Part shown: positions 5,128 through 59,892 of the stretch, in pieces
How the letters are laid out: each line of letters starts with the position of its first letter
How positions within the stretch are numbered: position 1 is the stretch's first letter
Assembly (NCBI GenBank): GCA_040388415.1
Contig: JAZKBV010000004.1
Span: forward strand, 24,069-88,068
Direction of reading: 5' to 3'
DNA length: 64,000 nt
Source of the DNA: Patescibacteria group bacterium
GTDB lineage: Bacteria > Patescibacteriota > Minisyncoccia > Phycocordibacterales > PALSA-1337
Made by a program: the position numbers and the translations under genes
Notes under the pieces: model-generated
What the model was told of the DNA's origin: nothing
What the model saw: the letters and a program-made list of their open reading frames with translations, nothing else
Database searches by the model: none

Positions 5128-6528
5128 ATGAGTACGAGCAACCCAAGCGACCCCAAGATGGGTCAGGTCACTAAACTGACCTTCAATCGCAAAAACGGTA
5201 ACTTCAGCTACAAGATCCCTGGCACCGGTGCCCGAAACGGCATCCAGTTCTATATCACGCCGACTGGCAACATCAAAGATGCCGTGCTCAGTATGGGCAT
5301 CTCTGGCGATCTTATCAAAATCGCCGCGAAGAACGGTAGCCTCACGCACAACTTGTCAGACTTCGGCCTTGTGTCGGAAAAGACTGTTGTGCGGGCGGGA
5401 GATTACTACCTTGTCCCGATCACCGTAGCGCACAGCACTTCTGGTCAGTCGCCGAGTGACCCGTTCTCGAAACCGGTCACACTCAGTCAAACGTTGGTGA
5501 ACGCTCTCGATGTCGTCTGGATCAAGAACAAGATCAACGTCCTGGAGTTGAATATCAATAAATTGAAAAAGGACGTTAACGGGATTCCGACTGATGCGCA
5601 CATCAAAGACCTCGCGAAAATCGAGGCGGCGACTGCATTCAGCGGCTATCAGGCTGAACTCAATGAACTTCGGGAGCTGCTCGACAAAAAGCAGCCCAAG
5701 GTCATCGTCAAGCGCACCGTCGCTTTGAACCTCGGAATGATCCTGATGAAAGCGCTCAGCAAGTGGACGGAGGCACGGAAGAAGAAAGCTCAAGCGAAAG
5801 CTGCGGCTACCCCTTCTTCTCCTGCCAAACCGGCTCTGAGCCCTCACCGCGCCCAGAAGCATGCGAACTATCGTCTGCGCTGGGCGTTGGCGGGAATCGC
5901 ATTCCTCATCCTCTGTCTCTCTGCGTTGGGGTATTACTTGAACCAAAAGTCCGGTCACCAAGGGGTCACTCCTTTGGCATCGGCTTTGGTCAACACCAAT
6001 GCGGGTGCAAGCAGTAACGCGCCGGCGAGCAGTGTGGCGACGATTGTCACCACGAACAGCCTCGGAACGAATGCGAACTCAGCTGTTTTGACTGCTGCTG
6101 CGACAAATAGCGCTTCAGTCATTCAGCAGATGGTCGTCGGACCTAATTGCAGTAACGTAAGCGGGCCAGTCAACATGAACTTTAGTCTGTTGTCTGTTCC
6201 CCCGCAACCAATCGTTGTGAAAACAATTGTGAAAACAACGGTCATCGTTACGAATCCGGTCGCTGTGAAAAAACCGTTCACGCCAGCCGTAGGGTATCAA
6301 CCGCCCGTGGCACAAAAAACCTTTGTGCCTGCGCAAGCGGTAACGCCCCCACAGGCCTCGGTGATCATCATCAACAATCAGACTGTCAACCGAGGAGGTT
6401 ATGGTCCTGGCACGGTATTGATAAGCGGCTGGCAGTATGACAATCAGCTCAGAGGCGGGAGACAAGTTTGCTACCGGGACAACTACCGGGCAATACGATC
6501 CTTCCCTCCGCCGTGTCGCCATCAATAA
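5128..6528 (+). CDS. Hypothetical protein with a central TM helix and a C-terminal low-complexity V/T/P-rich region, in a higher-GC segment
   Basis: A 466-aa ORF with an AAGGAGAG RBS 8 nt upstream. One TM segment reads WALAGIAFLILCLSALGYYL. Local GC is about 50-55% against about 43% in the core. An intrinsic terminator follows at 6551-6583. Confidence 0.6.
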   Translation: MSTSNPSDPKMGQVTKLTFNRKNGNFSYKIPGTGARNGIQFYITPTGNIKDAVLSMGISGDLIKIAAKNGSLTHNLSDFGLVSEKTVVRAGDYYLVPITVAHSTSGQSPSDPFSKPVTLSQTLVNALDVVWIKNKINVLELNINKLKKDVNGIPTDAHIKDLAKIEAATAFSGYQAELNELRELLDKKQPKVIVKRTVALNLGMILMKALSKWTEARKKKAQAKAAATPSSPAKPALSPHRAQKHANYRLRWALAGIAFLILCLSALGYYLNQKSGHQGVTPLASALVNTNAGASSNAPASSVATIVTTNSLGTNANSAVLTAAATNSASVIQQMVVGPNCSNVSGPVNMNFSLLSVPPQPIVVKTIVKTTVIVTNPVAVKKPFTPAVGYQPPVAQKTFVPAQAVTPPQASVIIINNQTVNRGGYGPGTVLISGWQYDNQLRGGRQVCYRDNYRAIRSFPPPCRHQ

Positions 6529-6550: not shown

Positions 6551-6583
6551 AAAACCCACAGACTTAATCTGTGGGTTTTTTTT
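6551..6583 (+). terminator. Rho-independent terminator
   Basis: AACCCACAGA cttaa TCTGTGGGTT followed by TTTTTT. Confidence 0.8.
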
Positions 6584-6612: not shown

Positions 6613-6903
6613 CTATCTACCAGCGATCGTATTTGAAATGAAATAGACAATGCCCCATGCAGATACCATGATCATGATGCCAACGACGCCGGCCAACATA
6701 TGATTGCGTCCTTTCGTGCGCGCGTCGCCATCTTCACCGTTAATCATCATCTGTATGACGCCCCATACAAAAACTATGATGGCAACCGCGAACATGAGCA
6801 TGATCAGTGGATTGACTATGTGCGTGAATATAGGATCAACCACAGAGGCAAAAGCCGCTGTGGGATCCGCTGCTGCATGTACTGTATCGATGAGATAGCT
6901 CAT
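6613..6903 (-). CDS. Pilin-like small membrane protein (TrbC/VirB2-like topology), paralog 1, lacking an N-terminal signal peptide
   Basis: Two hydrophobic helices are separated by a charged loop (NGEDGDARTKGRN). The C-terminal motif SAWGIVYFISNTIAG is shared with four upstream paralogs. Confidence 0.4.
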   Translation of the reverse strand: MSYLIDTVHAAADPTAAFASVVDPIFTHIVNPLIMLMFAVAIIVFVWGVIQMMINGEDGDARTKGRNHMLAGVVGIMIMVSAWGIVYFISNTIAGR

Positions 6904-6908
6904 TCTCT

Positions 6909-7268
6909 TTACGGAATCTGAGGAGGATAGTTCAACTGTGGGAAGTTCTGCGTAGGAGCGTTCGTGTTTGTTCTGAACGTATTTGAGAGAATATTAACGA
7001 GACCCCAGATCGAAAGGATAACAAAGAGACCGACGATGCCCCAGAGCACAGCCATACCAATCGACTTGCGCTTTTCTGGATCCTCAGCGGCCATGATATA
7101 ACGAACAACATTGAAGATGATATAGAGAACCGCAAAAGCGATAAGAATCTCAATAGCGACGTTACCGAGGTTCGTCAGTTTGTTGGTAAGAGAGTTGACG
7201 TCCGTAATAGCCTGAGCGCTCACGATAGCTGGAGCAAAAACGGCGACAAGTGCGATGATTTTTTTCAT
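6909..7268 (-). CDS. Pilin-like secreted/membrane protein (TrbC/VirB2-like), paralog 2
   Basis: Signal peptide MKKIIALVAVFAPAIVSAQA. Two TM helices with loop AAEDPEKRKS. C-terminal motif LSIWGLVNILSNTF. Confidence 0.5.
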   Translation of the reverse strand: MKKIIALVAVFAPAIVSAQAITDVNSLTNKLTNLGNVAIEILIAFAVLYIIFNVVRYIMAAEDPEKRKSIGMAVLWGIVGLFVILSIWGLVNILSNTFRTNTNAPTQNFPQLNYPPQIP

Positions 7269-7377
7269 TTTCTTATAAACTAAATTGGATAATAAAATCT
7301 AATACGATACCTCTAGTATACCCCACATTATTCGCGAGGAGCAACATAACGTGTGGATTAGTCGGTGATGTATTTCA

Positions 7378-7818
7378 CTAGCGTGGGAAGATGTTCGAGA
7401 TCTCTGTCCATGACCCAGGCCCGTAACCTGTATTGCCGAGACCAAATGTATTTTGAAGGATATTGACCAAACCCCACATCGAAAGGATGACGAAGAAGCC
7501 GATGACGCTGTACATGACATATGAACCAGCCTCTTTCTTATCGGCATCAGGCTTAATGAAATAGTTGAATATGTAGTAGACGAATACGACTACCGAAAGA
7601 CCGATCAATAAAAAGAGGATCTGGTTCAAATAACCGATAACACGGTTGATAAGTGTACAAAGCGTCATGGCATTTGAAGTACACTGACTACCCGATGAGG
7701 CGTAATTTCCATATGAGGCGTTACCACCAATGTTGAAAGTAACCGGCGATGTTGCATATGTAGCTATTGGGCTCACGAGCAGAACAAAAGCAAAAAGAGA
7801 AATAAGTGTTTTTTTCAT
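7378..7818 (-). CDS. Pilin-like secreted/membrane protein, paralog 3
   Basis: Start taken at MKKTLISLF (7818), which abuts the stop of paralog 4. Signal peptide present. Two TM helices with loop KPDADKKEAGS. C-terminal motif LSMWGLVNILQNTFG. Confidence 0.5.
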   Translation of the reverse strand: MKKTLISLFAFVLLVSPIATYATSPVTFNIGGNASYGNYASSGSQCTSNAMTLCTLINRVIGYLNQILFLLIGLSVVVFVYYIFNYFIKPDADKKEAGSYVMYSVIGFFVILSMWGLVNILQNTFGLGNTGYGPGSWTEISNIFPR

Positions 7819-7828
7819 AAAATAATAA

Positions 7829-8539
7829 TTACTGGTTATTAATAGCATTCTGCGCATTTTGAATGATCGCTGGATTGACTGTGCCAGTCGCCTGGAGCGT
7901 ATTGATGACGACGCTGATCAATATGCGCGCACCAAGGATGACACCGATGCCAACAACAACCCAGAGGAGCTGGTTGCTGCGGGTCTTAATCGCTTCCGGA
8001 TTTCCCTGCGCCAATACGAACTGGAGACCGACCCACATGAGCATGAGCACACCAAAAATCACTGCGATGTAGCTGACGATCTTCATAAAGGTCAAAATAA
8101 GATCGCTCACCGAATTGACTCCCTTAAGCGGATTGGAGAGTGTCGTCACTGGTGCAGGCGCAGGAGCTTGATCAGAAGCACTCGGTGTTTTTGCTGTAGA
8201 CGTGCGAGCTGCTGGCTGACCGGCAGTCGTTGGAGAACTAACTGTCGTTGGAGATGTAGCGTTATCAACTGCATTTACATTTGATCCTGAATACGGCACT
8301 GGAATAGTCGAGGGAGATGAATCATATGTTGTATCATACGAATTATAATCATAGCTCGAATCAGTGGATGGGTCTGTTGCTGATGGGTCTGTCGAATCTG
8401 CACCGGCACAGCTTTCTGGCGTACCTCCTTCGTTCAAACAATAATCATAATCGCTATTTTGTGCATAGCTGACGAATGGGCTCGCGATAATAACCGCTAA
8501 AGTAAGATATGTGACGTAGATTTTTAGAGTTGTTTTCAT
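7829..8539 (-). CDS. Pilin-like secreted/membrane protein with a long S/T/P/D-rich insert, paralog 4
   Basis: Signal peptide MKTTLKIYVTYLTLAVIIASPFVSYAQ. An approximately 110-aa low-complexity S/T/P/D-rich region. The C-terminal two-TM core ends in ARILISVVINTLQATG. Confidence 0.5.
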   Translation of the reverse strand: MKTTLKIYVTYLTLAVIIASPFVSYAQNSDYDYCLNEGGTPESCAGADSTDPSATDPSTDSSYDYNSYDTTYDSSPSTIPVPYSGSNVNAVDNATSPTTVSSPTTAGQPAARTSTAKTPSASDQAPAPAPVTTLSNPLKGVNSVSDLILTFMKIVSYIAVIFGVLMLMWVGLQFVLAQGNPEAIKTRSNQLLWVVVGIGVILGARILISVVINTLQATGTVNPAIIQNAQNAINNQ

Positions 8540-8573
8540 GAAAAAAAGATCAAATTAATAATTGAGTCAGTAA

Positions 8574-9095
8574 TTATGGACTACCGAGCAACTTGGTAAA
8601 CGCACCATTTCCCGTCAGCCAATTGAGGATCTGATAAACGATGAACCATGCTGACAGCATGATGATCAAACCAATGAATATCTTTGGAAAAATATCCTTG
8701 GCATGACTACGGTCACTATCCTTACCTGTCATAAGTAAATATCCTGCATAGGTAAAGAGAACAATGGCGGCGAGGACACCGAGCACCATGGCAATGTTGA
8801 TGAGATGCTGGACCTGTATCATCATGCCATTAAAATTGCAGGGCACATATGGCTGCGCATGTCCGAATTTTTTCATAAATGCGGTCTCACCTGAAGGCGA
8901 TAATATCTCTCTCGTCTTCGTATCGAGATTAGCTGGCAGCTCTGGGCCATCGCACGCAACGATCCTGAATGACGACTGAGTAGGATCCTCACTTGCGCTA
9001 GGAGACGTTAATGTTTGAGTATTCTGTGCAAAGACTGAAGACGTAGCAAGGAGGCTAACGCTGAGAAGTATGAGAGAAAGGGTAATTTTTTTCAT
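8574..9095 (-). CDS. Pilin-like secreted/membrane protein, paralog 5
   Basis: Signal peptide MKKITLSLILLSVSLLATSSVFAQ. Two TM helices with loop MTGKDSDRSHAKD. C-terminal motif LSAWFIVYQILNWLTGNG. Confidence 0.5.
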   Translation of the reverse strand: MKKITLSLILLSVSLLATSSVFAQNTQTLTSPSASEDPTQSSFRIVACDGPELPANLDTKTREILSPSGETAFMKKFGHAQPYVPCNFNGMMIQVQHLINIAMVLGVLAAIVLFTYAGYLLMTGKDSDRSHAKDIFPKIFIGLIIMLSAWFIVYQILNWLTGNGAFTKLLGSP

Positions 9096-9099: not shown

Positions 9100-10398
9100 T
9101 TACTGCGTTGTCGCTTGTCTGATCAAAGAGTCATATCGTATGCCCGTATCTTCGATCGCTTGGAAAGACGACCTCTGCCCTGTCGTGATTGATTCTATCA
9201 TATTGCCGAGTAATTGGGCTGACTGAACTGGGTCTGGATCGAGCCATGCTTTGCTGACAAGTGCTGCCTCGCCGAATACTGAAAGATATGGATCACTCGA
9301 GCCTTGAGCGATAAGATCGGTGCGCACGGGAGGCAGATACATCGTCTTTGCGAGCGAAGCGAGATAGGTTGGTTGAGTCAGTATAGAGAGAACTTGATAT
9401 GTGCCGTTGGCATTTGCACTTGAACGAACGATGGAGAAACCGTACATGCGTCCATAGGTCGCCTTGACGCCTCCCTTGCGTATCTGCGGAAGCGGTGCAG
9501 CGTCAAAATTGAGATTCTGGTTTTTTTCACGGATACTCGAAAGCTCTGAAGCAAATCCAAAATACGTAGCAAGATCGCCCGCAAGGAAAGCAGTGCGAGA
9601 ATCTGACATGCCGCGGTTCCAAGAATAATTCGGGTTGGTGGCGTCGACAAATTGTGAGAAGAAATCAAGTACGAGCTTTGGATTCACTTGCGCCGATAGA
9701 CGCAATGTCGACTGAAGCGTTCCTTGAGCATTGTATGCAGTGACAGGGTTACCCATTTGCATCAGGAGTGAGCCGAGGATCTCACGAGCACTCAAGACAT
9801 TGGTGAAATCGCCAAGAGCGATGGCCGATTTTCTGACGTTGCCGTTTGAATCTTTGACGGTGAGCTTTGGGATGATAGTGGTGAACTCGTCCCAGTAATG
9901 GGGATAAGTTGCTATGCCTGCAGTATTGAACATGTCGCGATTCCAATACATGATCAATGGATCAATAGTGAAAGGCAGTGCGAGTATGCCTGTATCCGTC
10001 GTATACATCTGAGCCTCCTGGATATACGTATCTCTATATGTGCGTGCAGAAAGCGCAGAGTACGGTATGAGCGCAATCTTGTCCTCATGTGGCAAGATTG
10101 TGTCTGCCGGGATGAGGATAGCGTCAGGGCCTATACCGCGTGCGAGAGCTGCGATGAACTGCTGTGAGAAAGCTGATGGATCTATCTGCTTGTAGGTAAC
10201 TGAAATCGGCGATGACGAGTTGTTATTTATATTTGAAACATAATCGTTGAATATGCCTGAAGAAAATGTGCCCCATATGGTGATAGCGGGCAATTGTGTG
10301 CTGCTGCTCGTATTCCCTTTGTACATAGCAAATGAAACTACACCCACAATGATGAAAAGTACGAATACGCCGAGAAGGATAATTTGAAATTTGGTCAT
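9100..10398 (-). CDS. Membrane-anchored extracellular solute-binding-protein-like protein (SBP family 1-like), orphan
   Basis: N-terminal TM anchor. SBP-like motifs: LPAITIWGTF, GIGPDAILIPADTI, YWNRDMFNTAGI. No adjacent permease or ATPase genes. Confidence 0.45.
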   Translation of the reverse strand: MTKFQIILLGVFVLFIIVGVVSFAMYKGNTSSSTQLPAITIWGTFSSGIFNDYVSNINNNSSSPISVTYKQIDPSAFSQQFIAALARGIGPDAILIPADTILPHEDKIALIPYSALSARTYRDTYIQEAQMYTTDTGILALPFTIDPLIMYWNRDMFNTAGIATYPHYWDEFTTIIPKLTVKDSNGNVRKSAIALGDFTNVLSAREILGSLLMQMGNPVTAYNAQGTLQSTLRLSAQVNPKLVLDFFSQFVDATNPNYSWNRGMSDSRTAFLAGDLATYFGFASELSSIREKNQNLNFDAAPLPQIRKGGVKATYGRMYGFSIVRSSANANGTYQVLSILTQPTYLASLAKTMYLPPVRTDLIAQGSSDPYLSVFGEAALVSKAWLDPDPVQSAQLLGNMIESITTGQRSSFQAIEDTGIRYDSLIRQATTQ

Positions 10399-10408: not shown

Positions 10409-10927
10409 CTATAATCTCGTTAATACCAAACCGTAGTGGTGATCTCCGGCGCCAAATGACTGATCGAGCTTGAAACCACTTTTTTCAAAGAGCATTTGGG
10501 CACGGGCAGATGAAAACAATGTCTTTGGACTGAGCGGGCTACCACCATTCCAATCGATGACCATGACTTTGCCCCCTGGTTTAAGTACTCGCTTTATCTC
10601 CAATGCGAACTCTTCCGGCTTCTCTATTTGAAAGAGCACATTTGAAACGATCACACGGTCAGCGATATTTTCACGGAGCTTTGTGCCGCCGATCTTCTCG
10701 ATATTTGCCCAGATGACTTCTATATTATTCAAATGCTGGCTTGTGCCTGCTACGCGGATGCGCTCAAGGATGTCTTTTTGGATATCGATAGCATATACGC
10801 GACCGCCAGGACCGACGCGACGGGCTGATTCGATAGAATAAAAACCTGAACCAGCGCCGAGATCGACGACTTTCATACCGAGTGCAAGTCCGAGTTTAGA
10901 CAAGTTGGCATTTGGGTCTGAGAACAT
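10409..10927 (-). CDS. Class I SAM-dependent methyltransferase
   Basis: VVDLGAGSGFYS glycine-rich SAM motif. Start taken at MFSDPN (10927), downstream of the gyrA stop. Confidence 0.7.
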   Translation of the reverse strand: MFSDPNANLSKLGLALGMKVVDLGAGSGFYSIESARRVGPGGRVYAIDIQKDILERIRVAGTSQHLNNIEVIWANIEKIGGTKLRENIADRVIVSNVLFQIEKPEEFALEIKRVLKPGGKVMVIDWNGGSPLSPKTLFSSARAQMLFEKSGFKLDQSFGAGDHHYGLVLTRL

Positions 10928-10983
10928 GGCTATAGTATAGCAAAGGAGTAGGAAGAATGGAGAAAGGAGTATGGGGACAAATA

Positions 10984-27180: not shown

Positions 27181-27376
27181 AAATTTCCTTTCGTTGGTTT
27201 TTCGACCTACAGCCAATTATAACATAGTATAATAAGCATGTAAATAGGCATTCTGTGGACAATTTGTTCCAGATACCATATATCCTAGCTATTTTCTCTG
27301 TACCATGCTATTATCATAAACCTAGTGGAAATAGCTCTCTAACGTCGAATTTCTTCAAATTAAAGCAAACAATAAC

Positions 27377-40439: not shown

Positions 40440-41366
40440 TTATTTTTTTGCTTTTGTCGAAGTTGATGTGATATTCGGATTGATCAGTACCCAACGAAGC
40501 TGATACACGCTCACCCCTGGAGAGAAGAGTACTGTTTCAAATGGATCCGCGGGATTATTGATGACAGCAGTGACCGTACCAAACGCCCCATCATCGAGAG
40601 ACGTATCAAGGATAATGTCTCCCTCAGCGATCTTTGTTGCTTGAGGAACCTGAGCCTCGTACTGGCCACCACCGCGACCGACAGCGGTTGCAGGTATATG
40701 ATTTGAGCCAATCAACACAGGATATGTTTGCCCTGGTGAAGACAGTAAAGTTATTTTTGAGGTCTGTCCGAACACATCAGTCGTAGTGCCAATAAGTATA
40801 TTTCCTGGAGCATATACTTTTGTGCCAAGCGCTACACCTTGATTGAGCCCTGCATCGACGATCAGTTCGTCATATCCAGTCAGTGGTGGACGAACAAGCA
40901 CTGCGGCAAGGATTCGCCCATTGACCGAACTGAGTGATGCAAATGTTTTGCTGATATTCGACACTGATGTGGATGATGCGGATGTAGATGAACCAAAATC
41001 TTCAGCCTCACTGCCTGTTGTGTTAAAAGAAGTTATATTGAGATCAGGGCGGCCAAGGACAGAGAGGAGGTCTGCATTCTGCGTGCGCACCAGATCAGCA
41101 GCGGCGTCTTGTATTGACACTTCTTGAAGGCGCACCTTGAGAGCTTCATTCACAGCCAAAAGCTCGGTAGGAGATCTGAGCGAACCGCTTTGTATAGAAA
41201 ATTCTACGCGCCAAAATGGACGAGCAATAGTGGTAAAAAGAGCCGGTAAAAAATGCGGTATGAGGAACTGAAAGACGGCCACAACAACAATCAGAACACC
41301 GATAATGAGTCCTGCAATTCGAGTGCGACGTTCTGATGGCCTGCTACTTGTTCGGATATACATCAT
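40440..41366 (-). CDS. mreC: Rod shape-determining protein MreC
   Basis: N-terminal TM helix, coiled-coil, then a beta-rich domain. The start ATGATG at 41366/41363 overlaps the mreB 3' end. Confidence 0.75.
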   Translation of the reverse strand: MMYIRTSSRPSERRTRIAGLIIGVLIVVVAVFQFLIPHFLPALFTTIARPFWRVEFSIQSGSLRSPTELLAVNEALKVRLQEVSIQDAAADLVRTQNADLLSVLGRPDLNITSFNTTGSEAEDFGSSTSASSTSVSNISKTFASLSSVNGRILAAVLVRPPLTGYDELIVDAGLNQGVALGTKVYAPGNILIGTTTDVFGQTSKITLLSSPGQTYPVLIGSNHIPATAVGRGGGQYEAQVPQATKIAEGDIILDTSLDDGAFGTVTAVINNPADPFETVLFSPGVSVYQLRWVLINPNITSTSTKAKK

Positions 41367-42414
41367 CGTCGCTGTCCAACAGGACCGCCTTATACTTATC
41401 CAAATCTTCCAAGATGATACCTGCACCGCGTGCAATAGCGGTCAACGGATCTTCAGCTATCGTTACAGGAATATTGAGCGTCTCACGGAGCAGTTCATCC
41501 AATCCTTTGATGAGAGCACCACCACCGACCAAGTGGATGCCACGCTTCATGATGTCAGCAAGAATCTCAGGGGGAGTTGTTTCAAGGGCTTCTCGTGCGG
41601 ACTCGACGATACTATTGATCGACTGGTTCATCGCTTCACGGATATCTGAGTCAGTGATGATCACTTCACGTGGGAGACCTGTGATGAGATCGCGTCCACG
41701 GATAGTAGTCTCGACAGCCTCTCCTGGCATAACGATACCGACACTGATCTTTACTTGCTCAGCCGTTGTCTCACCGATCAAGATTTTAAATTCATTGCGG
41801 ATATATGAAATGATATCGTTATTGAGCTTATCGCCAGCGATCTTGAGATTTTTTGAGCGCACAATACCGCCAAGTGAAATAATAGCGATGTCTGTCGTTC
41901 CTCCGCCAATATCGATGACCATAGAGCCAACGGGGTCATGTACAGGGAGACGAATACCAATCGCGCCTGCCATCGGTTGTTCTACGATGTAGACTTCTCT
42001 CGCACCAGCATTTTTTGCTGCATCACGAACTGCGCGGACTTCAACGTTCGTTACGCCAGATGGTACGCCGATCACGACGCGCGGACCAAGAAACTTTTTG
42101 GGGAGATACTCGTGTGCGCGCTTCATGAGGTATGCAAGCATTTCTTCAGTCACTTCAAAATCAGAGATGACTCCATCGACGAGCGGACGCACCGCAGTGA
42201 TATGAGTTGGCGTACGTCCCAACATTTCTTTTGCAGCAGTACCTACAGCGACAACTTGTCCTGTTTTTTGATTGACTGCGACCACCGAAGGTTCGTTGAC
42301 CACGATACCCTTTCCACGCACATACACGAGCGTATTGGCAGTACCAAGGTCAATGCCGATATCGTTAGAAAAACGGCTGAGTAGCTTGTCTTTTTTCTCC
42401 TTGAAAGACGTCAT
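41344..42414 (-). CDS. mreB: Rod shape-determining protein MreB
   Basis: IGIDLGTANTLVYV actin-fold phosphate 1 motif. 356 aa. Confidence 0.9.
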   Translation of the reverse strand: MTSFKEKKDKLLSRFSNDIGIDLGTANTLVYVRGKGIVVNEPSVVAVNQKTGQVVAVGTAAKEMLGRTPTHITAVRPLVDGVISDFEVTEEMLAYLMKRAHEYLPKKFLGPRVVIGVPSGVTNVEVRAVRDAAKNAGAREVYIVEQPMAGAIGIRLPVHDPVGSMVIDIGGGTTDIAIISLGGIVRSKNLKIAGDKLNNDIISYIRNEFKILIGETTAEQVKISVGIVMPGEAVETTIRGRDLITGLPREVIITDSDIREAMNQSINSIVESAREALETTPPEILADIMKRGIHLVGGGALIKGLDELLRETLNIPVTIAEDPLTAIARGAGIILEDLDKYKAVLLDSDDDVYPNK

Positions 42415-47904: not shown

Positions 47905-48918
47905 TTATCTCTTCGCCACAATCGCCTTCTTATATACACCCAAATGCTCGAGAGCGATACCAGTTCCCTTTGCTACACAGAGGAGCGGTTCTTCGGCTAG
48001 CTGTGCCTTAACGCCAGTGCGACGGAATACAAGCTCAGGAAGGTTACGGAGCAGTGACGAACCACCAGTGAGCATGATGCCCTGATCGATGATATCAGCA
48101 GCGAGCTCAGGCGGTGTCTCTTGGAGAACGTCTTTGATCGCTTTGATCATATCGCGGAGCTCGGCAGTGATCGCTTTGACGATCTCATTTGTCTTGATCT
48201 CAGTTGAGCGTGGGAGACCGGTGATGAAGTCGCGACCCTTAACCTGCATCGAGAGCTCCTGATCGAGCGGAATAGCTGAGCCAATATTCATTTTGATATT
48301 TTCTGCCATATGATCACCGATAGCGAGGTTAAATGTTTTCTTTACATAATCAGTGATAGCATTGTCGATTTTATTTCCTGCGCACTTCACCGACGTCGAT
48401 GAAACGATACCGCCGAGAGAAATAACTGCGACGTCAGTTGTACCGCCACCGATATCTACCACCATATGACCTTTTGCTTCATGAATAGGAATGCCTGCAC
48501 CGATTGCAGCGAGAATAGGCTCTTTGACAACATATGCATTCTTGGCACCAGCACGAATAGCAGCTTCGATGACCGCACGACGCTCGGTAGATGTAACACC
48601 TGCGGGAACAGAGACCATGACATCAGGTTTGAAAAGATTGAAACGACCGAGTGCTTTGTCGATGAAATAGCGGAGCATTGCTTCGGTCACACGATAGTCA
48701 GCGATAACCCCATCTTTCATAGGACGATAGGCGACAATCGTATCTGGCGTACGACCGACCATTTCTTTTGCCTCGACGCCAACAGCAAGAACTTTCTTAT
48801 CGACTTCAGAGATAGCGACGACGGTTGGTTCATTGAGAACGATTCCCTTTCCAGGCACAAAAACAAGAGTATTTGCCGTACCCAAATCAATGCCGAGTTT
48901 TGGAGAAAACATGTTCAT
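47905..48918 (-). CDS. mbl: Second MreB/Mbl-like actin homolog
   Basis: LGIDLGTANTLVFV. 337 aa and colinear with MreB at 41344-42414. Confidence 0.85.
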   Translation of the reverse strand: MNMFSPKLGIDLGTANTLVFVPGKGIVLNEPTVVAISEVDKKVLAVGVEAKEMVGRTPDTIVAYRPMKDGVIADYRVTEAMLRYFIDKALGRFNLFKPDVMVSVPAGVTSTERRAVIEAAIRAGAKNAYVVKEPILAAIGAGIPIHEAKGHMVVDIGGGTTDVAVISLGGIVSSTSVKCAGNKIDNAITDYVKKTFNLAIGDHMAENIKMNIGSAIPLDQELSMQVKGRDFITGLPRSTEIKTNEIVKAITAELRDMIKAIKDVLQETPPELAADIIDQGIMLTGGSSLLRNLPELVFRRTGVKAQLAEEPLLCVAKGTGIALEHLGVYKKAIVAKR

Positions 48919-50291: not shown

Positions 50292-50837
50292 CTACATTCT
50301 AGACGAAATTGTAAGTCTTGGGAAATAACGGTCGCCGAAAAAGTTTGACAAAATTCTTTGGTTTTCTATACTATAAGTACGTGAAGAGGTTCTTATCTTC
50401 ACGACATTGGCTTCGGCCTCCAAGGACCCCACAATTGTGGGGTCTGTTACATTTATGAGAAGGCTACAGACACAACCAACAACAGTATTAAAATCAGTGA
50501 CAGACATTACCCCGATCTTTTTACCGAGACGACGACTATCGAAAGATCTCACGTGAAGCAGTAGTAGGTCCGTTTTTCTTCCCCTTAGAACATAATGAAA
50601 CCTGAATTGTTCCTCGCTGATCGTCGTAGTGAATGGTACCCCTAAAAATATCGTCTGAGTGAATTTCTTGAGGACTAAGATTGGCCTGCTAAAATCACCT
50701 GAATAAGAATCCTGTTCTGATCCGATATTTACACCTATTTTGCACCACCAAATCTCACGTTCATGAAAATTAACCGGACGACGTTCGTTGTTGATGATCT
50801 TTTTGTATTCATTCCATGTATCAAAATCTTTTGGCAT
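50292..50837 (-). CDS. MazF/PemK-family endoribonuclease toxin-like protein with N- and C-terminal extensions, no adjacent antitoxin gene
   Basis: REIWWCKIGVNIGSEQDSYSGDFSRPILVL...GVPFTTT...HVRSFDSRRLGKKIGVMSVTDFNTVVGCVCSLLI aligns with MazF (GDLIWVDFDPTKGSEQ...RPAVVLS...VPCTT...IRS.D.R...). A TTGTAA-N16-TAAAAT promoter ends 6 nt before the ATG, so the mRNA looks leaderless. Confidence 0.6.
   Translation of the reverse strand: MPKDFDTWNEYKKIINNERRPVNFHEREIWWCKIGVNIGSEQDSYSGDFSRPILVLKKFTQTIFLGVPFTTTISEEQFRFHYVLRGRKTDLLLLHVRSFDSRRLGKKIGVMSVTDFNTVVGCVCSLLINVTDPTIVGSLEAEANVVKIRTSSRTYSIENQRILSNFFGDRYFPRLTISSRM
50344..50443 (+). promoter_or_regulatory. Convergent sigma70 promoter (TTGACA-N16-TATACT) plus three consecutive hairpins, antisense to the 3' part of the mazF-like ORF
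   Basis: -35 at 50344-50349 and -10 at 50366-50371. Hairpins: GTGAAGAggttcttATCTTCAC (50380-50402), GGCttcgGCC (50408-50417), and the perfect palindrome GACCCCACAATTGTGGGGTC (50424-50443). Confidence 0.5.
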
Positions 50838-51406: not shown

Positions 51407-51569
51407 AATGATTCTCCTTTTGGGAATGGCTCATGTGTAGGGCCATATGGTTTTATTTCAACACGGCTTCCATAAAATGGGGCCGATAACTACTCGGGTA
51501 CAATTATACCACCATAAATACCATTCTGTCAATCCTCCCTCAACCCTTAAAATAAGCTATATTCAAGCC

Positions 51570-53555
51570 ATGAACCTGATAACCGTCATTCCGCTCACCC
51601 GTCAGAAAGTGGCTCCAACACTTTCGTATTTTACCTCGTCGGTTGTACCGGTTGGCGCTATCGTGACCGTCCCCCTCCGTTCAAAGACGATCAGTGCTAT
51701 CGTCTCAGACTCGCGTCCTGTGGCAGACGTCAAAGCAGACGTGAAAAGCGCGCCGTTCGAAATACGCAAGTTGGGCGCCGTCAAAGCCATCGCCTTCTTC
51801 CCTCCTTCATTCATCGAAGCATGTCGTTCGCTCGCCCTTCACTATGCCACTACTACAGGCAGCATCATCGACGCAATCATTCCTGACATCTTGATGGAAA
51901 ATGCACACAAGATCACTCCCCCCAACTCCGCACTCCCAACTTCTATCTCCAATGCGATACCTAACGAAGTCTACGTAGTCCAAGGCGACGATGCTGACCG
52001 CTTTAGCACGTGGCGCAGTCTGATCCGTCAGGAGTTCGCACGAAAAAAATCGGTTGTCTTTCATACGCCTACAATCGAAGATGCAAAGAACATGTTCAAA
52101 CTCCTCGAAAAAGGCATTGAGGGATATATTTTTATTCTTCATAACAAGCTCGCCAAAAAAGAAATCATCGAAACATGGGAGCTGATCGCAAAAACAGATC
52201 ATGCAGTGGCTATTATTACTGCCGGCATATTCCCCCTTCTTCCTCGCAACGATATCTCATCGGTCGTCATTGAGAGAGAAAACGGCCGTGGCTGGATATC
52301 ACCAAAGATGCCATACATGGACTTGCGCAAAGCGTTCGAGATCATCAACAAGCTCGCGCCCGGCAGAAATATATATCTTGCTGATAGTCTGCTCCGTAAC
52401 GAGACACTTCATCGTCTCGATCGTAACGAAATCTCACAGGGTTCACCATTCAAGTGGCGCTCCATCTCTACCGCCATTGATACACTCATCAATATGGTGC
52501 CGGAGAGGTCACAAGAGATAAGAGATAAGAGCTTGGAGGTAAGAAAAGACACAGAAACTATAGATGCTGACTCTAAGCTCCTAGCTCCTAGCTCCAATCT
52601 CTCTTTTCGTATCCTCTCTCCAGAGCTCGAGCGTTTGATCACCACAAATCGGGATGAGAATAGTCACCTCTTCATCTATGCGGTACGTAGAGGCCTCGCC
52701 ACCATGACAGTCTGTAGCGACTGTGAGACCATCGTAACGTGTGCCTCATGCTCATCACCGGTGGTCCTGCATGCATCAAAAGAAACGGGCAGAAACTTCT
52801 TCATGTGCCACGTCTGCGGTATTCGTCGCAGTGCCGATGAGGTCTGTCGCGTATGCGGAGGCTGGAGACTAACCGCGCTCGGCATCGGCCTCGATCGCGT
52901 CGAACAAGAGATCAAAGCAAAGTACCCGAACATCGACGTATACAAGATAGACGCCGATATCACCAAGACAGACAAACAGATCGCTGCAACGCTCGATAAG
53001 TTCCGTTCAAAACCGGGCAGTATATTACTTGGTACAGAAATCGCATCTTTGCACTTACATGAAACTGTTGATCATTGCGCTATCGTATCACTAGATTCAT
53101 TATTTGCTCTCCCTGACTTCCGCATACCGGAAAAGATAATGTATACGCTCATCCGCCTGCGCACGCTTGCCAGCCGTTCGATACTCGTACAGACGCGCCG
53201 TATAGAAGAAAAAGTATTCGAGTATGGCCTCAAAGGAAACTTGAGCGACTTTCATCGTGAGACTATCAGTGAGCGTCGCCGTTTTGGATATCCGCCATTT
53301 ATGACGCTCATCAAGATTAGTATTGAGGGTAAAAAGGATTCTATTGCAGAACAGATGGCTGACATTCAGAAAATCATTGAGCCTTATGAAATAGACATAT
53401 TTCCTGCATTCACTGGCGCTGCGCGAGGCAACTCCATCATCCACGGGCTCCTCAAATTACCACCTGAAATGTGGCCGAACATTGAGCTTGCCGAAAAGCT
53501 TCGCAATCTTCCTCAAAATGTCAGCGTGAAAGTCGATCCGGAGAGCTTGTTGTAG
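51570..53555 (+). CDS. priA: Primosomal protein N' (PriA)-like, helicase Walker A motif absent
   Basis: N-terminal 3'-DNA-binding-like region (VIPLTRQKV...VPVGAIVTVPL). A C-terminal Cys-rich zinc-binding region (CSDCETIVTCASCSSPVV...CHVCGIRRSADEVCRVCGG). A GSGKT/S P-loop was not found where expected (YVVQGDDADRFSTW). Confidence 0.7.
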   Translation: MNLITVIPLTRQKVAPTLSYFTSSVVPVGAIVTVPLRSKTISAIVSDSRPVADVKADVKSAPFEIRKLGAVKAIAFFPPSFIEACRSLALHYATTTGSIIDAIIPDILMENAHKITPPNSALPTSISNAIPNEVYVVQGDDADRFSTWRSLIRQEFARKKSVVFHTPTIEDAKNMFKLLEKGIEGYIFILHNKLAKKEIIETWELIAKTDHAVAIITAGIFPLLPRNDISSVVIERENGRGWISPKMPYMDLRKAFEIINKLAPGRNIYLADSLLRNETLHRLDRNEISQGSPFKWRSISTAIDTLINMVPERSQEIRDKSLEVRKDTETIDADSKLLAPSSNLSFRILSPELERLITTNRDENSHLFIYAVRRGLATMTVCSDCETIVTCASCSSPVVLHASKETGRNFFMCHVCGIRRSADEVCRVCGGWRLTALGIGLDRVEQEIKAKYPNIDVYKIDADITKTDKQIAATLDKFRSKPGSILLGTEIASLHLHETVDHCAIVSLDSLFALPDFRIPEKIMYTLIRLRTLASRSILVQTRRIEEKVFEYGLKGNLSDFHRETISERRRFGYPPFMTLIKISIEGKKDSIAEQMADIQKIIEPYEIDIFPAFTGAARGNSIIHGLLKLPPEMWPNIELAEKLRNLPQNVSVKVDPESLL

Positions 53556-56128: not shown

Positions 56129-56201
56129 TCCTCGGTAGCTCAGCTGGTAGAGCAGCTCGCTGTTAACGAGTTGGTCGTAGGTTCGAATCCTACCCGAGGA
56201 G
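56129..56201 (+). tRNA. tRNA-Asn (anticodon GTT); its 3' end is overlapped by the recombinase gene (integration site)
   Basis: TCCTCGGTAGCTCAGCTGGTAGAGCAGCTCGCTGTTAACGAGTTGGTCGTAGGTTCGAATCCTACCCGAGGAG. Confidence 0.85.
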
Positions 56202-57743
56202 CATTGTAGGACGAGAGGGCACAAAAGTGCTCTCTTTTCTTTTTATGGAGCCATTATTTTCTGGTTCGAAAGTGTTATTAAGTAAAGGCACCCATTTAGC
56301 AAGAAATTCAAAGGCTAAAGTGTATTGTGGGGCTATAACATTAGCTTTCATTGAGATGTTCGAAAATATCTGACTTAAAAGCAATCTCTTTTGCTCAACA
56401 GTCGTCTTTGGACCCAAATATATATCTTTTGCCTTCATAGCTAGCTCATGAATTGAATACCCTGCTTCGTAATATCTCTGACGGTCCTCAGAAAGTTTTT
56501 TTAATGAATCCAACAGGACTTCATTTTCTCTTTTTGTATCTTCAAAGACCTTTGTGTACATCTCTCCAGTAATGGCACCATCCAGTTTATCCATATAAAC
56601 TTTCTCCATTCTGTTGTCATTACGCTTAATGAGCCTAGATATCTCTTCTTTCCTGAGACCATGTTCTTGAATCTCATCTGCATGACTTTCTTTTAATGCT
56701 TTTTCTAACCACGCAATAACCCTAGGATTTTTAGGGGCTATCTTGTCGAAATAAGCAAAAAGCTCTTTTTCAACCTCTTCCTGTCGAATCCATTTAGCCT
56801 TTGGACAGCCTTTATAATAATTACAGTGCCCATACCAATGCCCTTTTTGAGTCTCCCATGTAATCACACCTTTACATACCTCACAGTTAAGCTTCGCTTT
56901 GAATACTGGAGTGTGTTTTCTATATGAAGGAGACTGATTTTTACGGTTTAATTTATCTTGAACAAGATTAAATAATTCTTGTGAAATCAATGGCTCATGC
57001 TTTCCTTGATAAATCTCATTGTTCCACCTTATCTTTCCGTAGTAGAAAGGGTCACTCAAAAAATCATGCATTCTCGTCTTACCTACTCTGGTTCCAAAAT
57101 TATTTCTAAATCCCTCCTTATACAAAACATTACTCAGTTCTTGGACCGAATAGTTGCCAGTTGAATACAGGTCAAACATCCGCTTTATATACTGAGCCTT
57201 TTCAGGATTAATTACATGTATCTTATGACCCTTTTCTCCTTGTGATTTATAACCTAATGGTGCCCTAACAGGTGCCCAGCCTTGAGAAAGCTTCTCTTTC
57301 TGCCCTTTGCGGACCTCTTCAGACAAATTTGATATATACTTCTTAGCCAAAACTATTTCAATGTCCCATCTAAACCTTTCATCAGATTTTGCATTTCTGT
57401 GTATCACTAAATTTTGCTTCACAAAGTGAATCTTGCGATTTACATCAGCATCAATCCAATCGTTCGCCACGACTGCTTCCTTGAGGTTTCTAGTTAGTCG
57501 GTCAACCTTTTCGCACAACAGATTATTAACCCCATTCTTAGTCATGTAATCAATCATGTCTGAAAACACCTTTCTTTGCTTTGCACCACTTGCAGATTCA
57601 GCAACAGAAAAAGTTTTTACTACCTTCATATCCTTTCTTTGCGCATGTTCCTCTAGCAACTTCTCTTGTGCTGGCAAAGAATAGCCAGTTTCCTCCTGTT
57701 CTTTTGAACTCACTCGGGCATATATAACAGCTTTTTCTTTCAT
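56190..57743 (-). CDS. Large serine recombinase (serine integrase)
   Basis: N-terminal resolvase catalytic domain (AVIYARVSSKEQ, catalytic Ser). Recombinase domain. Zinc-ribbon and coiled-coil region (CEVCKGVITWETQKGHWYGHCNYYKGCP). 517 aa. Confidence 0.85.
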   Translation of the reverse strand: MKEKAVIYARVSSKEQEETGYSLPAQEKLLEEHAQRKDMKVVKTFSVAESASGAKQRKVFSDMIDYMTKNGVNNLLCEKVDRLTRNLKEAVVANDWIDADVNRKIHFVKQNLVIHRNAKSDERFRWDIEIVLAKKYISNLSEEVRKGQKEKLSQGWAPVRAPLGYKSQGEKGHKIHVINPEKAQYIKRMFDLYSTGNYSVQELSNVLYKEGFRNNFGTRVGKTRMHDFLSDPFYYGKIRWNNEIYQGKHEPLISQELFNLVQDKLNRKNQSPSYRKHTPVFKAKLNCEVCKGVITWETQKGHWYGHCNYYKGCPKAKWIRQEEVEKELFAYFDKIAPKNPRVIAWLEKALKESHADEIQEHGLRKEEISRLIKRNDNRMEKVYMDKLDGAITGEMYTKVFEDTKRENEVLLDSLKKLSEDRQRYYEAGYSIHELAMKAKDIYLGPKTTVEQKRLLLSQIFSNISMKANVIAPQYTLAFEFLAKWVPLLNNTFEPENNGSIKRKESTFVPSRPTMLLG

Positions 57744-58178
57744 GTATTATGTTAATTATACTGCTAAATTGTTTTTTTAAATACAACCAACTTTTACCTT
57801 TAATGAGAGGTAATTAGCTATATCTAATATGTTACCCAATACTGTAATCTAACGATGGTACTACCTTTTGAATAATATTCTTATGAAGCAAACTTATTCG
57901 ACATTAGCCCATCAAAGATTTGAGATACTTCGATACTTTTTAAACGGCTGGGCGAGAAGTTGTCACTCGTTTTCCCAGCATTCTCAAAAATACCTAAATA
58001 TCCCTTTATTGTTTGTTACATGCAACGCTTCAGTGGCATATAATTTTATAAGATTCCAAGTTGTTTTGGTGTAGTAGTTTAGTCTTATGACTACTCTGTA
58101 TTGTGGTTTTTAACAAACGGGTACATTTAATCAAATACCCTTATCTATCTCATTATCTAATGGGACACACAAGGAAAT

Positions 58179-58364: not shown

Positions 58365-58425
58365 TAAACGTAATCTATATCAACTTTGCTATTTACTAAC
58401 CCTATAAGTGAAATTCAGTCCATTT

Positions 58426-59489: not shown

Positions 59490-59495
59490 TAAAAA

Positions 59496-59891: not shown

Positions 59892-59892
59892 A

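What the first reader, a model, noticed from the sequence alone, without database searches (positions are those of the whole stretch)
6613..9095. Tandem array of five diverged pilin-like (TrbC/VirB2-topology) paralogs next to a tRNA pair
Five consecutive minus-strand genes encode small proteins sharing a C-terminal core: two hydrophobic helices separated by a short charged loop, ending in a conserved S-x-WG-hVN-hL-x-NTF-like motif. Four have signal peptides. They differ by large low-complexity inserts (paralog 4 has about 110 aa of S/T/P/D-rich sequence), and one copy (6613-6903) has lost its signal peptide. This looks like a diversifying surface or pilus-subunit family, of the kind often annotated TrbC/VirB2 in Patescibacteria. 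It sits downstream of tRNA-Lys/Leu together with a higher-GC gene and an orphan membrane-anchored SBP-like protein.
Basis: partly seen in the sequence, partly recalled or inferred. Interest (0 to 1): 0.6.

Follow-up and report, generated by a model that had tools for sequence, protein, structure and literature searches.

The report
Conserved five-gene VirB2-like pilin cassette
Five neighbouring genes in an ultrasmall (Patescibacteria) bacterium encode secretion-system pilin-like membrane proteins, a gene arrangement already described for this group; they are an ancient, fixed set tied to a membrane-anchored binding protein, not a rapidly diversifying family.

Summary
Five consecutive minus-strand genes (6613-9095) each pass Pfam's threshold for PF18895 (T4SS_pilin, the Patescibacteria VirB2-like family); reversed-sequence controls do not. 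Four have Sec-type signal peptides, and all share a two-helix hairpin core.

Arrays of divergent VirB2-like pilins in Patescibacteria are already published (Wang 2023; Quinonero-Coronel 2025: 441 arrays of 2-11 genes, about 25% identity), so the kind is known.

The "diversifying" reading is not supported. The five are separate orthogroups in a fixed order (pil5-4-3-2-1) in about 80 species-level genomes. Core identity is 65% between positional orthologues against 25% between paralogues, and dN/dS is 0.04-0.22.

Three details appear to be new:
- The array is the distal part of a conserved cassette, methyltransferase / TM-anchored SBP-like protein / pilins, which persists in lineages where the SBP is only 35% identical.
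- SBP and pil5 are fused in frame in three independent lineages.
- A cassette-specific promoter-like motif (TCCACA-N29-32-TATAAT) precedes pil2.

No T4SS ATPase lies in the window or within 10 kb of the cassette in relatives. Whether the proteins depend on a T4SS is inferred, not shown.

The parts
10934..10977 (-). Promoter-like element TCCCCA-N32-TATACT. It starts just after the gyrA stop codon and ends 7 nt before the methyltransferase ATG.
   Evidence: The exact TCCACA form lies directly upstream of the MT gene in about four related species, for example 7 nt upstream in L079 and L080. Function is inferred.
10409..10927 (-). Class I SAM-dependent methyltransferase (172 aa, no TM segment). 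It is the first gene of the conserved cassette.
   Evidence: Pfam Methyltransf_31/11/25. Only generic, far sub-threshold NCBIfam matches. It sits immediately upstream of the SBP gene in all loci with enough flank, including those where gyrA is not the upstream neighbour. The substrate is unknown.
9100..10398 (-). SBP-like protein (432 aa) with an N-terminal TM anchor (KFQIILLGVFVLFIIVGVVSFAMY). There is no adjacent ABC permease or ATPase. Its stop codon lies 4 nt before the pil5 start.
   Evidence: Pfam SBP_bac_8 and SBP_bac_1. Its position is conserved in all relatives. In-frame SBP::pil5 fusions occur in six species, in three independent lineages, and also in P0184, P0189, P0366 and P0371.
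8574..9095 (-). pil5 (173 aa): signal peptide, an extracellular segment with two invariant cysteines (F[KR]IVxCDGP ... YxPC[ND]F), then the two-helix hairpin.
   Evidence: PF18895 at 34.4 bits. Orthologue alignment A3 gives the invariant residues. AlphaFold2 model with pLDDT 74. The same CxGxG...CDF motif is present in the first pilin after the SBP in distant lineages.
7829..8539 (-). pil4 (236 aa): signal peptide, about 115 aa of low-complexity S/T/P/D-rich linker, then the hairpin. It is the least conserved member.
   Evidence: PF18895 at 33.9 bits and PF04956 at 25.8 bits. Orthologue lengths range from 103 to 277 aa, and median identity to the window is 0.37.
7378..7818 (-). pil3 (146 aa from the ATG at 7818): signal peptide, a short G/S/N-rich segment with two cysteines, then the hairpin.
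   Evidence: PF18895 at 27.1 bits. Start choice.
7315..7357 (-). Internal promoter-like element TCCACA-N31-TATACT in the 109-nt pil3-pil2 gap. The -10 box ends 46 nt before the pil2 ATG.
   Evidence: The motif is present in 46 of 59 species at this position, against 0.08 expected in shuffles. In 2.2 Mb of related loci, 57 of 66 matches lie directly upstream of pil2-like genes. The window has only 2 matches, with 0.17 expected. Promoter function is inferred.
6909..7268 (-). pil2 (119 aa): signal peptide, hairpin and a short tail. It is the most conserved pilin, has near-constant length, and is the candidate major subunit.
   Evidence: PF18895 at 44.4 bits. 427 homologues were found; the 120 listed are 62-99% identical and mostly 117-121 aa. 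dN/dS is 0.044. The AlphaFold2 model has helices at 24-59 and 64-98, with pLDDT above 87 over the hairpin.
6613..6903 (-). pil1 (96 aa): a short AxA leader without n- or h-region, then the hairpin. It is the last gene of the cassette.
   Evidence: PF18895 at 35.2 bits. The conserved short leader is seen in orthologues.
6551..6579 (.). Bidirectional intrinsic-terminator-like hairpin (12-13 bp stem, T-runs on both strands). It lies between the pil1 stop (6613) and the stop of the convergent 466-aa gene (6528).

Best explanation
**What it is.** The five genes encode VirB2-like 'pilin' proteins of the Patescibacteria family PF18895. They form the distal part of a chromosomal seven-gene cassette: SAM methyltransferase, TM-anchored SBP-like protein, then pil5, pil4, pil3, pil2 and pil1. 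The cassette is conserved across Taylorbacteria-like Paceibacteria and, with 4-6 pilins, in much more distant relatives.

**Shown.**
- Family membership.
- Fixed order and purifying selection on each of the five orthogroups.
- Linkage to the SBP and methyltransferase genes, and repeated SBP::pil5 gene fusion.
- A cassette-specific conserved motif in front of pil2 (and, as a variant, in front of the methyltransferase gene), and a terminator after pil1.

**Inferred mechanism.**
1. The cassette is transcribed from a promoter at the gyrA/MT junction and boosted from the internal promoter before pil2-pil1.
2. pil2 to pil5 are exported by Sec and cleaved at AxA sites. All five insert as hairpins with N- and C-termini outside and a short basic loop in the cytoplasm, which is the VirB2/TraA topology.
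3. As with VirB2 in other T4SSs, they are then used by a VirB4-type type IV secretion machine encoded elsewhere on the chromosome, to build a pilus and/or the membrane-proximal channel.
4. pil2 is the likely major structural subunit. It is the most conserved, has constant length and has its own promoter.
5. pil3 and pil4 carry variable surface-exposed extensions.
6. pil5 is probably a membrane-resident adaptor that holds the SBP-like domain at the cell surface. In the fusion proteins the SBP keeps its own N-terminal TM anchor, so the polypeptide is pinned by three TM helices and is unlikely to be extruded into a filament.
For: **Family.**
- All five pass the PF18895 cut-off, and the reversed-sequence control is negative.
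- pil4 matches PF04956 TrbC at E 1.3e-5.
- All five match the Mycoplasma ICE pilin-like model NF045849 below its cut-off, with pil2 at 36.9 and pil4 at 30.5 bits.
- AlphaFold2 gives a signal-peptide helix plus a long two-helix hairpin.

**Ancient fixed set.**
- Synteny is conserved in L003, L004 and L006 and in essentially all 80 species-level loci.
- Core identity is 0.65 between orthologues and 0.25 between paralogues; dN/dS is 0.044 (pil2), 0.062 (pil3) and 0.217 (pil4).
- The same pil5-like first gene, pil4-like second gene and signal-peptide-less last gene are found in lineages whose SBP is only 35% identical.

**Cassette.**
- MT-SBP-pilins stay linked when the upstream neighbour changes.
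- Intergenic gaps have medians of 3-17 nt, except for about 98 nt before pil2.

**SBP coupling.**
- Six fused genes fall in three independent lineages. Two of those lineages retain the fusion across species that are 67-76% identical.
- The N-terminal anchor is retained in the fusions.
- Further fusions occur in public protein sets. One of them, P0371, has precomputed Pfam hits to both SBP families and to PF18895.

**Regulation.**

**T4SS link (literature).**
- Patescibacteria carry a chromosomal MPF-FATA-like T4SS. VirB2-like pilins occur in 1,948 VirB4-positive assemblies and lie near virB4 in 1,135 of them. Arrays of 2-11 genes are reported (PMC12102498).
- The pilin series in Southlakia is essential (PMC10633639).
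- One genome carrying this cassette (L011, GCA_001821055.1) is listed as VirB4-positive.
Against: - No VirB4, VirB6, T4CP or pilus ATPase gene is in the 64-kb window.
- None was found among the 51 large unassigned ORFs within 10 kb of the cassette in 80 relatives. The physical link to a T4SS is therefore absent here, unlike in Southlakia.
- Presence of VirB4 in this genome could not be tested.
- In the published table 9 of 23 Taylorbacteria draft genomes are scored VirB4-negative.
- PF04956 is below its curated threshold for all five.
- No pilus of this family has been visualised.
- The three-TM fusion argues that at least pil5 is not a filament subunit.
Confidence: 0.6

Rival explanations
1. 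T4SS-independent envelope complex. The 2-TM hairpin proteins oligomerise in the cytoplasmic membrane and, together with the tethered SBP-like protein, form an autonomous surface apparatus. This could be a binding-protein-dependent conduit or sensor for host-derived molecules. In this reading the 'pilin' label reflects ancestry only.
For: - The cassette is never next to T4SS genes in about 80 genomes.
- It is always linked to an SBP-like gene, even at 35% SBP identity.
- SBP::pil5 fusions have three TM anchors, as in binding domains fused to membrane translocator subunits.
- 9 of 23 Taylorbacteria drafts are scored VirB4-negative.
Against: - The only sequence-family signals are to conjugative or T4SS pilin families.
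- There is no ATPase, permease or other energising component in the cassette.
- VirB4 is widespread in Paceibacteria, and one cassette-bearing genome has it.
- The draft-MAG 'No' calls are unreliable. For example, GCA_001189105.1 has only 206 annotated CDSs.
Confidence: 0.2
2. Diversifying or antigenic-variation array. The paralogues are interchangeable pilus subunits that evolve fast to match different hosts or to evade recognition.
For: - Identity between paralogues is low, 16-34% in the core.
- The low-complexity extensions of pil3, pil4 and pil5 are hypervariable in length and sequence.
- The number of pilins differs (4, 5 or 6) between distant lineages.
- The literature draws an analogy with Bartonella and Anaplasma VirB2 paralogues.
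Against: - Each position is a separate conserved orthogroup in a fixed order.
- dN/dS is far below 1.
- pil2 is 62-99% identical among the 120 listed homologues, with nearly constant length.
- Orthogroup-specific features are conserved: the pil5 cysteines and the pil1 short leader.
- There is no recent duplication or gene conversion.
Confidence: 0.07
3. Holin-like or other phage or mobile-element hairpin membrane proteins, or type IV pilus (T4P) pilins.
For: The proteins are small and have two TM helices. One integrase-bearing region exists elsewhere in the window, at 56-64 kb.
Against: - The flanks are housekeeping genes: gyrA on one side and nusB/rnc on the other.
- The cassette sits at the same chromosomal position in about 80 species.
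- There is no endolysin or phage gene nearby.
- The leaders are Sec-type AxA signal peptides, not the class III G|F prepilin leader of T4P pilins.
- No Pfam hit to a T4P pilin or holin family was obtained.
Confidence: 0.02

Closest known systems
VirB2-like pilin arrays of Patescibacteria (Ca. Southlakia epibionticum ML1 T4SS cluster SEML1_0006-0019; 441 arrays in 383 assemblies, Quinonero-Coronel et al. 2025)
   Same: - The Pfam family is the same (PF18895/PF04956 was used to define those arrays).
- The genes are tandem, small, Sec-exported two-helix proteins.
- Pairwise identity is about 25%.
- The host is monoderm and the location is chromosomal.
   Different: - The Southlakia series lies inside the T4SS gene cluster and was shown to be essential.
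- This array lies in a separate cassette with a methyltransferase and an SBP-like protein, next to gyrA, with no T4SS gene within 10 kb.
- The published arrays are described as variable. This one is a fixed set of orthogroups under purifying selection.
- I found no published mention of the SBP link or the fusions in the searchable library.
Classical conjugative or T4SS pilins VirB2 / TrbC / TraA (Agrobacterium T-pilus, RP4, F-pilus)
   Same: - A cleavable leader, two hydrophobic helices, and a short basic loop predicted to face the cytoplasm or the pilus lumen.
- Small size.
- A weak but above-noise PF04956 match for pil4.
   Different: - All five are below the PF04956 curated threshold.
- There is no detectable similarity to solved pilin structures.
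- The classical genes are single-copy and sit inside the virB/trb/tra operon.
- There is no cyclase (TraF) or acetylase (TraX) gene here.
- Several members carry long N-terminal extracellular extensions.
Mbov_0395 / MMCAP2_0565 pilin-like conjugal transfer protein of Mycoplasma ICEs (NCBIfam NF045849)
   Same: All five proteins align over nearly the whole 80-residue model. It is a monoderm, MPF-FATA-type context, which agrees with the proposed origin of the Patescibacteria T4SS.
   Different: Scores are 16-37 bits, below the cut-off of 40. The Mycoplasma gene is single-copy and ICE-borne.
Tandem VirB2 paralogues in Bartonella and Anaplasma T4SS loci
   Same: Several VirB2 copies lie side by side (cited).
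   Different: Those copies are thought to serve antigenic or host-range variation. Here the copies are non-interchangeable orthogroups conserved over long evolutionary distances.
Substrate-binding domains fused to membrane subunits of ABC importers (e.g. GlnPQ, OpuA). This is an analogy from my own knowledge and was not tested.
   Same: An SBP-fold domain is covalently tethered to a small TM module at the outer face of a monoderm membrane, and the fusion arose repeatedly.
   Different: The cassette has no permease fold and no ATPase. The TM module is a VirB2-like hairpin.

Membership tests
PF18895 T4SS_pilin (Patescibacteria VirB2-like pilins) | Profile-HMM match at or above Pfam's gathering score | tested here: met
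   Scores are 35.2, 44.4, 27.1, 33.9 and 34.4 bits against a cut-off of 26.6. Reversed sequences give no hit. Precomputed PF18895 hits exist for the same genes on public contigs.
PF18895 T4SS_pilin (Patescibacteria VirB2-like pilins) | Small protein with a cleavable leader and two TM helices joined by a short charged loop | tested here: met
   Hydropathy and AxA sites were read from the sequence. AlphaFold2 gives hairpins at 24-59/64-98 in pil2 and 88-122/126-162 in pil5. pil1 has only a short AxA leader.
Classical TrbC/VirB2 (PF04956) | Profile-HMM match at or above the gathering score (27.9 bits) | tested here: not met
   The best score is pil4 at 25.8 bits (E 1.3e-5). pil5 scores 18.2 and pil1 16.3, which is at the noise level seen with reversed sequences.
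Classical TrbC/VirB2 (PF04956) | Fold similarity to solved conjugative pilins | tested here: inconclusive
T4SS pilin (functional sense) | Encoded with, or in the same genome as, a VirB4-type ATPase and VirB6/VirB3/VirB8-like components | tested here: not met
   - This verdict covers linkage. There is none in the 64-kb window and none among large ORFs within 10 kb in 80 relatives.
- Same-genome presence is not testable with the window; attempts to walk along the source contig failed.
- A related cassette-bearing genome, GCA_001821055.1, is listed as VirB4-positive.
T4SS pilin (functional sense) | Polymerises into an extracellular filament or is needed for substrate transfer | not testable with these tools
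   This needs microscopy, proteomics or genetics.
Patescibacteria 'VirB2 array' as defined by Quinonero-Coronel et al. 2025 | Two or more pilin genes in tandem or separated by one non-pilin gene, with low identity between copies (mean about 25%, maximum 54%) | tested here: met
   Five genes are adjacent with gaps of 5-109 nt. Core identity within the window is 16-34%. The definition is quoted.
Type IV pilus (T4P) pilins | Class III leader (G|F/M) followed by a single N-terminal hydrophobic helix, with PilD/PilB/PilC genes | tested here: not met
   The leaders are Sec/SPase I type, the hydrophobic helices are C-terminal and paired, there is no T4P Pfam hit, and there are no PilB/PilC genes in the window.
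Phage holins | Located in a lysis cassette of a (pro)phage, next to an endolysin | tested here: not met
   The flanks are housekeeping genes and are conserved across species.
SBP-dependent ABC importer (for the neighbouring SBP-like gene) | Adjacent permease and ATP-binding-cassette genes | tested here: not met
   The neighbours are the methyltransferase and the pilins in every locus.

The most novel reading that the evidence does not exclude
**Proposed reading.** The conserved methyltransferase / TM-anchored SBP / VirB2-like hairpin cassette is a distinct, previously undescribed envelope module of Paceibacteria. In it a solute-binding-fold protein is physically coupled to a pilin-like membrane subunit (pil5). 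Either it forms a T4SS-independent binding-protein-dependent conduit or sensor, or it places a ligand- or host-recognition domain at the base or tip of the T4SS pilus. This would tie the essential but functionally unexplained Patescibacteria T4SS to capture of host-derived molecules.

**A further speculation.** The set of five non-interchangeable subunits could correspond to one hetero-oligomeric layer of a five-start conjugative-type pilus. That idea rests on my own knowledge of the C5 symmetry of such pili and was not tested. It fits poorly with the 4- and 6-gene arrays seen in other lineages.
Probability: 0.2. Interest if true: 0.7.

Novelty: new variant of a known kind. Interest (0 to 1): 0.42.

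Why it matters
Patescibacteria make up a large share of bacterial diversity and live attached to other microbes. Their T4SS and its pilin series are essential in the one species tested, but nobody knows what the system transports or how the many pilin paralogues are used.

This locus adds three points:
- In a large Paceibacteria clade the paralogues are a fixed, individually conserved set. That argues for a division of labour between subunits and against antigenic variation.
- One paralogue is repeatedly fused to a membrane-anchored solute-binding-fold protein. This gives a concrete, testable partner and a hint toward ligand or host recognition.
- A cassette-specific promoter motif gives a handle on regulation.

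The array itself is an already described kind and is already annotated 'pilin' in GenBank. The value lies in these refinements, not in a new class of system.

Tried and rejected
2. **Finding VirB4 in the same genome.** I tried to walk along the source contig (a 132-kb NCBI MAG contig). The end-of-window proteins were either not on record or only on short Logan contigs.
3. **Mapping cassette-bearing genomes onto the published VirB4 table.** Only two could be matched. One is 'Yes'. The other is 'No' but has only 206 annotated CDSs.
4. **Rfam search of the array and of the second motif region.** No hits.
5. **Recent duplication or gene conversion.** Rejected by the DNA repeat analysis.
6. **The convergent genes downstream of pil1 in relatives.** Three conserved families were found, in 58, 26 and 18 loci. 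None has a Pfam match, for example to VirB6, and none has a homologue in the window.
7. **Sub-threshold Pfam hits.** Hits to DUF4134, Maff2 and DUF2165, and the TrbC hits of pil1 and pil5, were discounted. Reversed sequences reach similar scores against unrelated families.
8. **Holin and T4P readings.** Rejected on context and leader type.


Full report
**1. What is in the sequence.**

Between 6613 and 9095 there are five co-directional minus-strand ORFs. I call them, in transcription order:
- pil5 (8574-9095, 173 aa)
- pil4 (7829-8539, 236 aa)
- pil3 (7378-7818, 146 aa; the longest ORF runs to 7857, but public gene calls use the MKK start)
- pil2 (6909-7268, 119 aa)
- pil1 (6613-6903, 96 aa)

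All five end in two hydrophobic helices joined by a short charged loop. pil2 to pil5 begin with a Sec-type hydrophobic leader that ends in an AxA-like site. pil1 does not. pil4 carries about 115 aa of S/T/P/D-rich sequence.

**2. Family assignment and controls.**

- Each of the five proteins passes the curated threshold of Pfam PF18895 'T4SS_pilin': 27.1-44.4 bits against 26.6.
- PF04956 (TrbC/VirB2) is below threshold for all. Only pil4 (25.8 bits, E 1.3e-5) is clearly above noise.
- As a composition control I scanned the five reversed sequences. None hit PF18895 or PF04956, and unrelated membrane families reached at most about 18 bits.
- NCBIfam gives one consistent, sub-threshold match for all five: NF045849, the pilin-like conjugal transfer protein of Mycoplasma ICEs. 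This agrees with the published view that the Patescibacteria T4SS is related to the monoderm MPF-FATA class.
- AlphaFold2 models of pil2 (pLDDT 77.5) and pil5 (74.1) show a signal-peptide helix and a long helical hairpin. pil5 also has a small N-terminal segment beside its two invariant cysteines.
- A family HMM built from 390 orthologues finds exactly these five ORFs in the window.

**3. Organism and context.**

Close homologues come from 'Candidatus Paceibacterota', Taylorbacteria and Parcubacteria metagenome-assembled genomes. The rest of the window is housekeeping:
- gyrA, gyrB, ftsA, ftsZ, two mreB, mreC and a PBP
- RNase III, NusB, RNase R and aminoacyl-tRNA synthetases

No VirB4, VirB6, coupling protein or pilus ATPase is present in the 64 kb.

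**4. The paralogues are an ancient fixed set, not a diversifying family.**

- The 120 listed homologues of pil2 are 62-99% identical and almost all 117-121 aa long.
- In three relatives and in essentially all 80 species-representative genomes recovered, the order gyrA/other - MT - SBP - pil5 - pil4 - pil3 - pil2 - pil1 is the same. Some species have a sixth, pil2-like copy.
- Over 73 core columns, proteins at the same position in different genomes are on average 65% identical. Proteins at different positions are 25% identical.
- dN/dS between the window and its closest sequenced relative is 0.044 (pil2), 0.062 (pil3) and 0.217 (pil4). For comparison it is 0.06 for the SBP and 0.013 for gyrA. 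dS is saturated for pil1 and pil5.
- Median identity to the window across species is gyrA 0.80, MT 0.68, SBP 0.56, pil2 0.54, pil3 0.48, pil5 0.45, pil1 0.44 and pil4 0.37.
- Orthogroup-specific traits are conserved. pil5 has two invariant cysteines in the motifs F[KR]IVxCDGP and YxPC[DN]F. pil1 has a short leader ending in AxA but no n- or h-region.
- At DNA level there is no sign of recent duplication or conversion.
- What does vary freely are the low-complexity extensions (pil4 orthologues are 103-277 aa) and, at deep distances, the copy number (section 5).

**5. The real unit is a seven-gene cassette.**

- The methyltransferase and SBP-like genes stay immediately upstream of the pilins even when the gene upstream of the methyltransferase is not gyrA. 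gyrA is the upstream neighbour in 25 of 51 loci with enough flank; the others have different neighbours.
- Gaps inside the cassette have medians of 3-17 nt, except for about 98 nt before pil2.
- A search of 1.84 billion cluster representatives with a fused protein shows that the TM-anchored SBP family is large, with 958 representatives at E<=1e-30.
- Two of its distant members (35% identical to the query) could be placed on long contigs. Both sit in gyrA - methyltransferase - SBP - pilin-array blocks, with six and four PF18895 genes respectively.
- In both distant blocks the first pilin has the pil5-type Cys...CDF motif, the second resembles pil4, and the last lacks a signal peptide like pil1.
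- A third distant SBP is followed by a gene with the same motif and hairpin.

**6. SBP-pilin fusion.**

- In six species genomes the SBP ORF runs in frame into pil5, giving proteins of 560-696 aa. The pil5 signal peptide is reduced to a short linker.
- Nearest-neighbour analysis of the SBP part shows three independent fusion lineages: L013 alone, L041+L047, and L037+L062+L082. The last two retain the fusion across species that are 67-76% identical.
- Independent data sets contain further fusions: P0184, P0189, P0366 and P0371. P0371 has precomputed Pfam hits to both SBP families and to PF18895.
- The fused proteins keep the conserved N-terminal TM anchor of the SBP. The polypeptide is therefore pinned by three TM helices, with the SBP domain and the pil5 ectodomain both outside.
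- This is strong comparative evidence that the SBP-like protein and pil5 act together at the membrane. It also argues that pil5 is a membrane-resident component and not an extruded filament subunit (inference).

**7. Expression signals.**

- A 12-13-bp GC-containing hairpin with T-runs on both strands (6551-6579) separates the pil1 stop from the stop of the convergent gene.
- The conserved gap before pil2 holds TCCACA-N31-TATACT (7357-7315, minus strand).
- The pattern TCCACA-N29-32-TATAAT-like occurs at this position in 46 of 59 species, against 0.08 expected in shuffles.
- In 2.2 Mb of related loci, 57 of 66 matches are directly upstream of pil2-like genes, and about four more are directly upstream of the methyltransferase gene.
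- In the window a TCCCCA variant fills the gyrA-MT spacer and ends 7 nt before the MT start.
- The spacing is too long for a -35/-10 pair. I read TCCACA as an upstream regulator site or UP-like site and TATAAT as the -10 box. This is inference, and no transcript data were available.

**8. Relation to what is known.**

Arrays of sequence-divergent, structurally similar VirB2-like pilins in Patescibacteria are published:
- An essential series sits inside the T4SS cluster of Ca. Southlakia epibionticum (PMC10633639; reviewed in PMC12857230).
- There are 441 arrays of 2-11 genes in 383 assemblies, with mean identity 25%. Pilins are near virB4 in 1,135 of 1,948 assemblies (PMC12102498).

The window's array fits that definition, and its products are already named 'pilin' by NCBI. 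What I did not find in the searchable literature is:
- the fixed orthogroup structure
- the MT-SBP-pilin cassette
- the SBP::pilin fusions
- the promoter motif

That search covers only the held library.

**9. Link to a T4SS.**

This is the weakest step.
- No T4SS gene is in the window.
- None was detected among the 51 large unassigned ORFs within 10 kb of the cassette in the 80 relatives. Those ORFs are SMC, GroEL, ClpB, UvrD and similar.
- I could not reach the rest of the source genome.
- In the published genome table, the one well-annotated cassette-bearing genome I could match (L011 = GCA_001821055.1) is VirB4-positive. Of the 23 Taylorbacteria drafts listed there, 14 are positive and 9 negative. 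The only other match has a defective annotation.

The T4SS-dependent model is therefore the best supported by homology and literature. A T4SS-independent, SBP-coupled membrane complex is not excluded.

**10. Verdict.**

- The finding is real, and its family-level interpretation is right.
- Its 'diversifying' interpretation is wrong.
- Its description of the neighbours (orphan SBP, tRNAs, GC-rich gene) mixes one true partner, the SBP, with non-conserved neighbours.
- The kind of feature is already known. The cassette architecture and the SBP coupling make it a variant worth a modest follow-up.

Noticed in passing
window 27216-27259 (minus strand) and downstream to about 26850: This is a second exact copy of the cassette's promoter-like motif (TCCACA-N32-TATAAT). 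It is followed by an SD-like AAAGGAAA and a small ORF of about 36 aa with one TM helix (MHIMSLHVTLPGVLVVGVLIIGLACIVASVLKRNRS). After that come about 200 nt without an obvious gene. There is no Rfam match. It may be co-regulated with the pilin cassette.
   Followed up: partly
window 5128-6528 (+): This 466-aa gene has higher GC (0.50-0.53), one central TM segment and no Pfam or NCBIfam match. It has no significant homologue in any of the 80 related loci. In relatives this position holds three other conserved convergent gene families (found in 58, 26 and 18 loci), also without Pfam matches, and none of them is present in the window. The region between pil1 and nusB behaves as a variable island.
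   Followed up: partly
window 60694-60812 (-): A LOOT RNA (Rfam RF03000) scores 87.5 bits against a gathering score of 46.4. It lies directly upstream of, and on the same strand as, a 271-aa ORF without a Pfam match (59893-60708).
   Followed up: no
window 56129-64000: A large serine recombinase gene (56190-57743, minus) overlaps the 3' end of tRNA-Asn (56129-56202). It is followed by several ORFs without Pfam matches, the LOOT RNA, and a Beta_protein (PF14350) / M78-peptidase pair (61517-63887). This looks like an element integrated at tRNA-Asn.
   Followed up: no
window 50292-50837 (-) and 51447-53555 (+): There is a PemK/MazF-like toxin domain protein of 181 aa, and next to it a 702-aa ORF with no Pfam match.
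   Followed up: no
window 41344-42414 and 47905-48918 (both minus): Two full-length MreB paralogues (each about 450 bits to PF06723) lie within 7 kb of each other, together with mreC and a PBP2-like gene.
   Followed up: no
loci L032, L033, L036, L052, L056, L059, L065, L068 (between gyrA and the MT gene): In these species an additional pilin-family ORF (76-252 aa) lies on the opposite strand between gyrA and the methyltransferase gene. It is absent from the window, where the gyrA-MT spacer is only 56 nt.
   Followed up: no
L004 / L016 (ENA contig_40023 = OY969557.1, 876-kb chromosome): gyrA, the SBP gene and pil5 are each split into two or three ORFs in this assembly only. This is probably frameshift error from long-read assembly and not pseudogenisation.
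   Followed up: no
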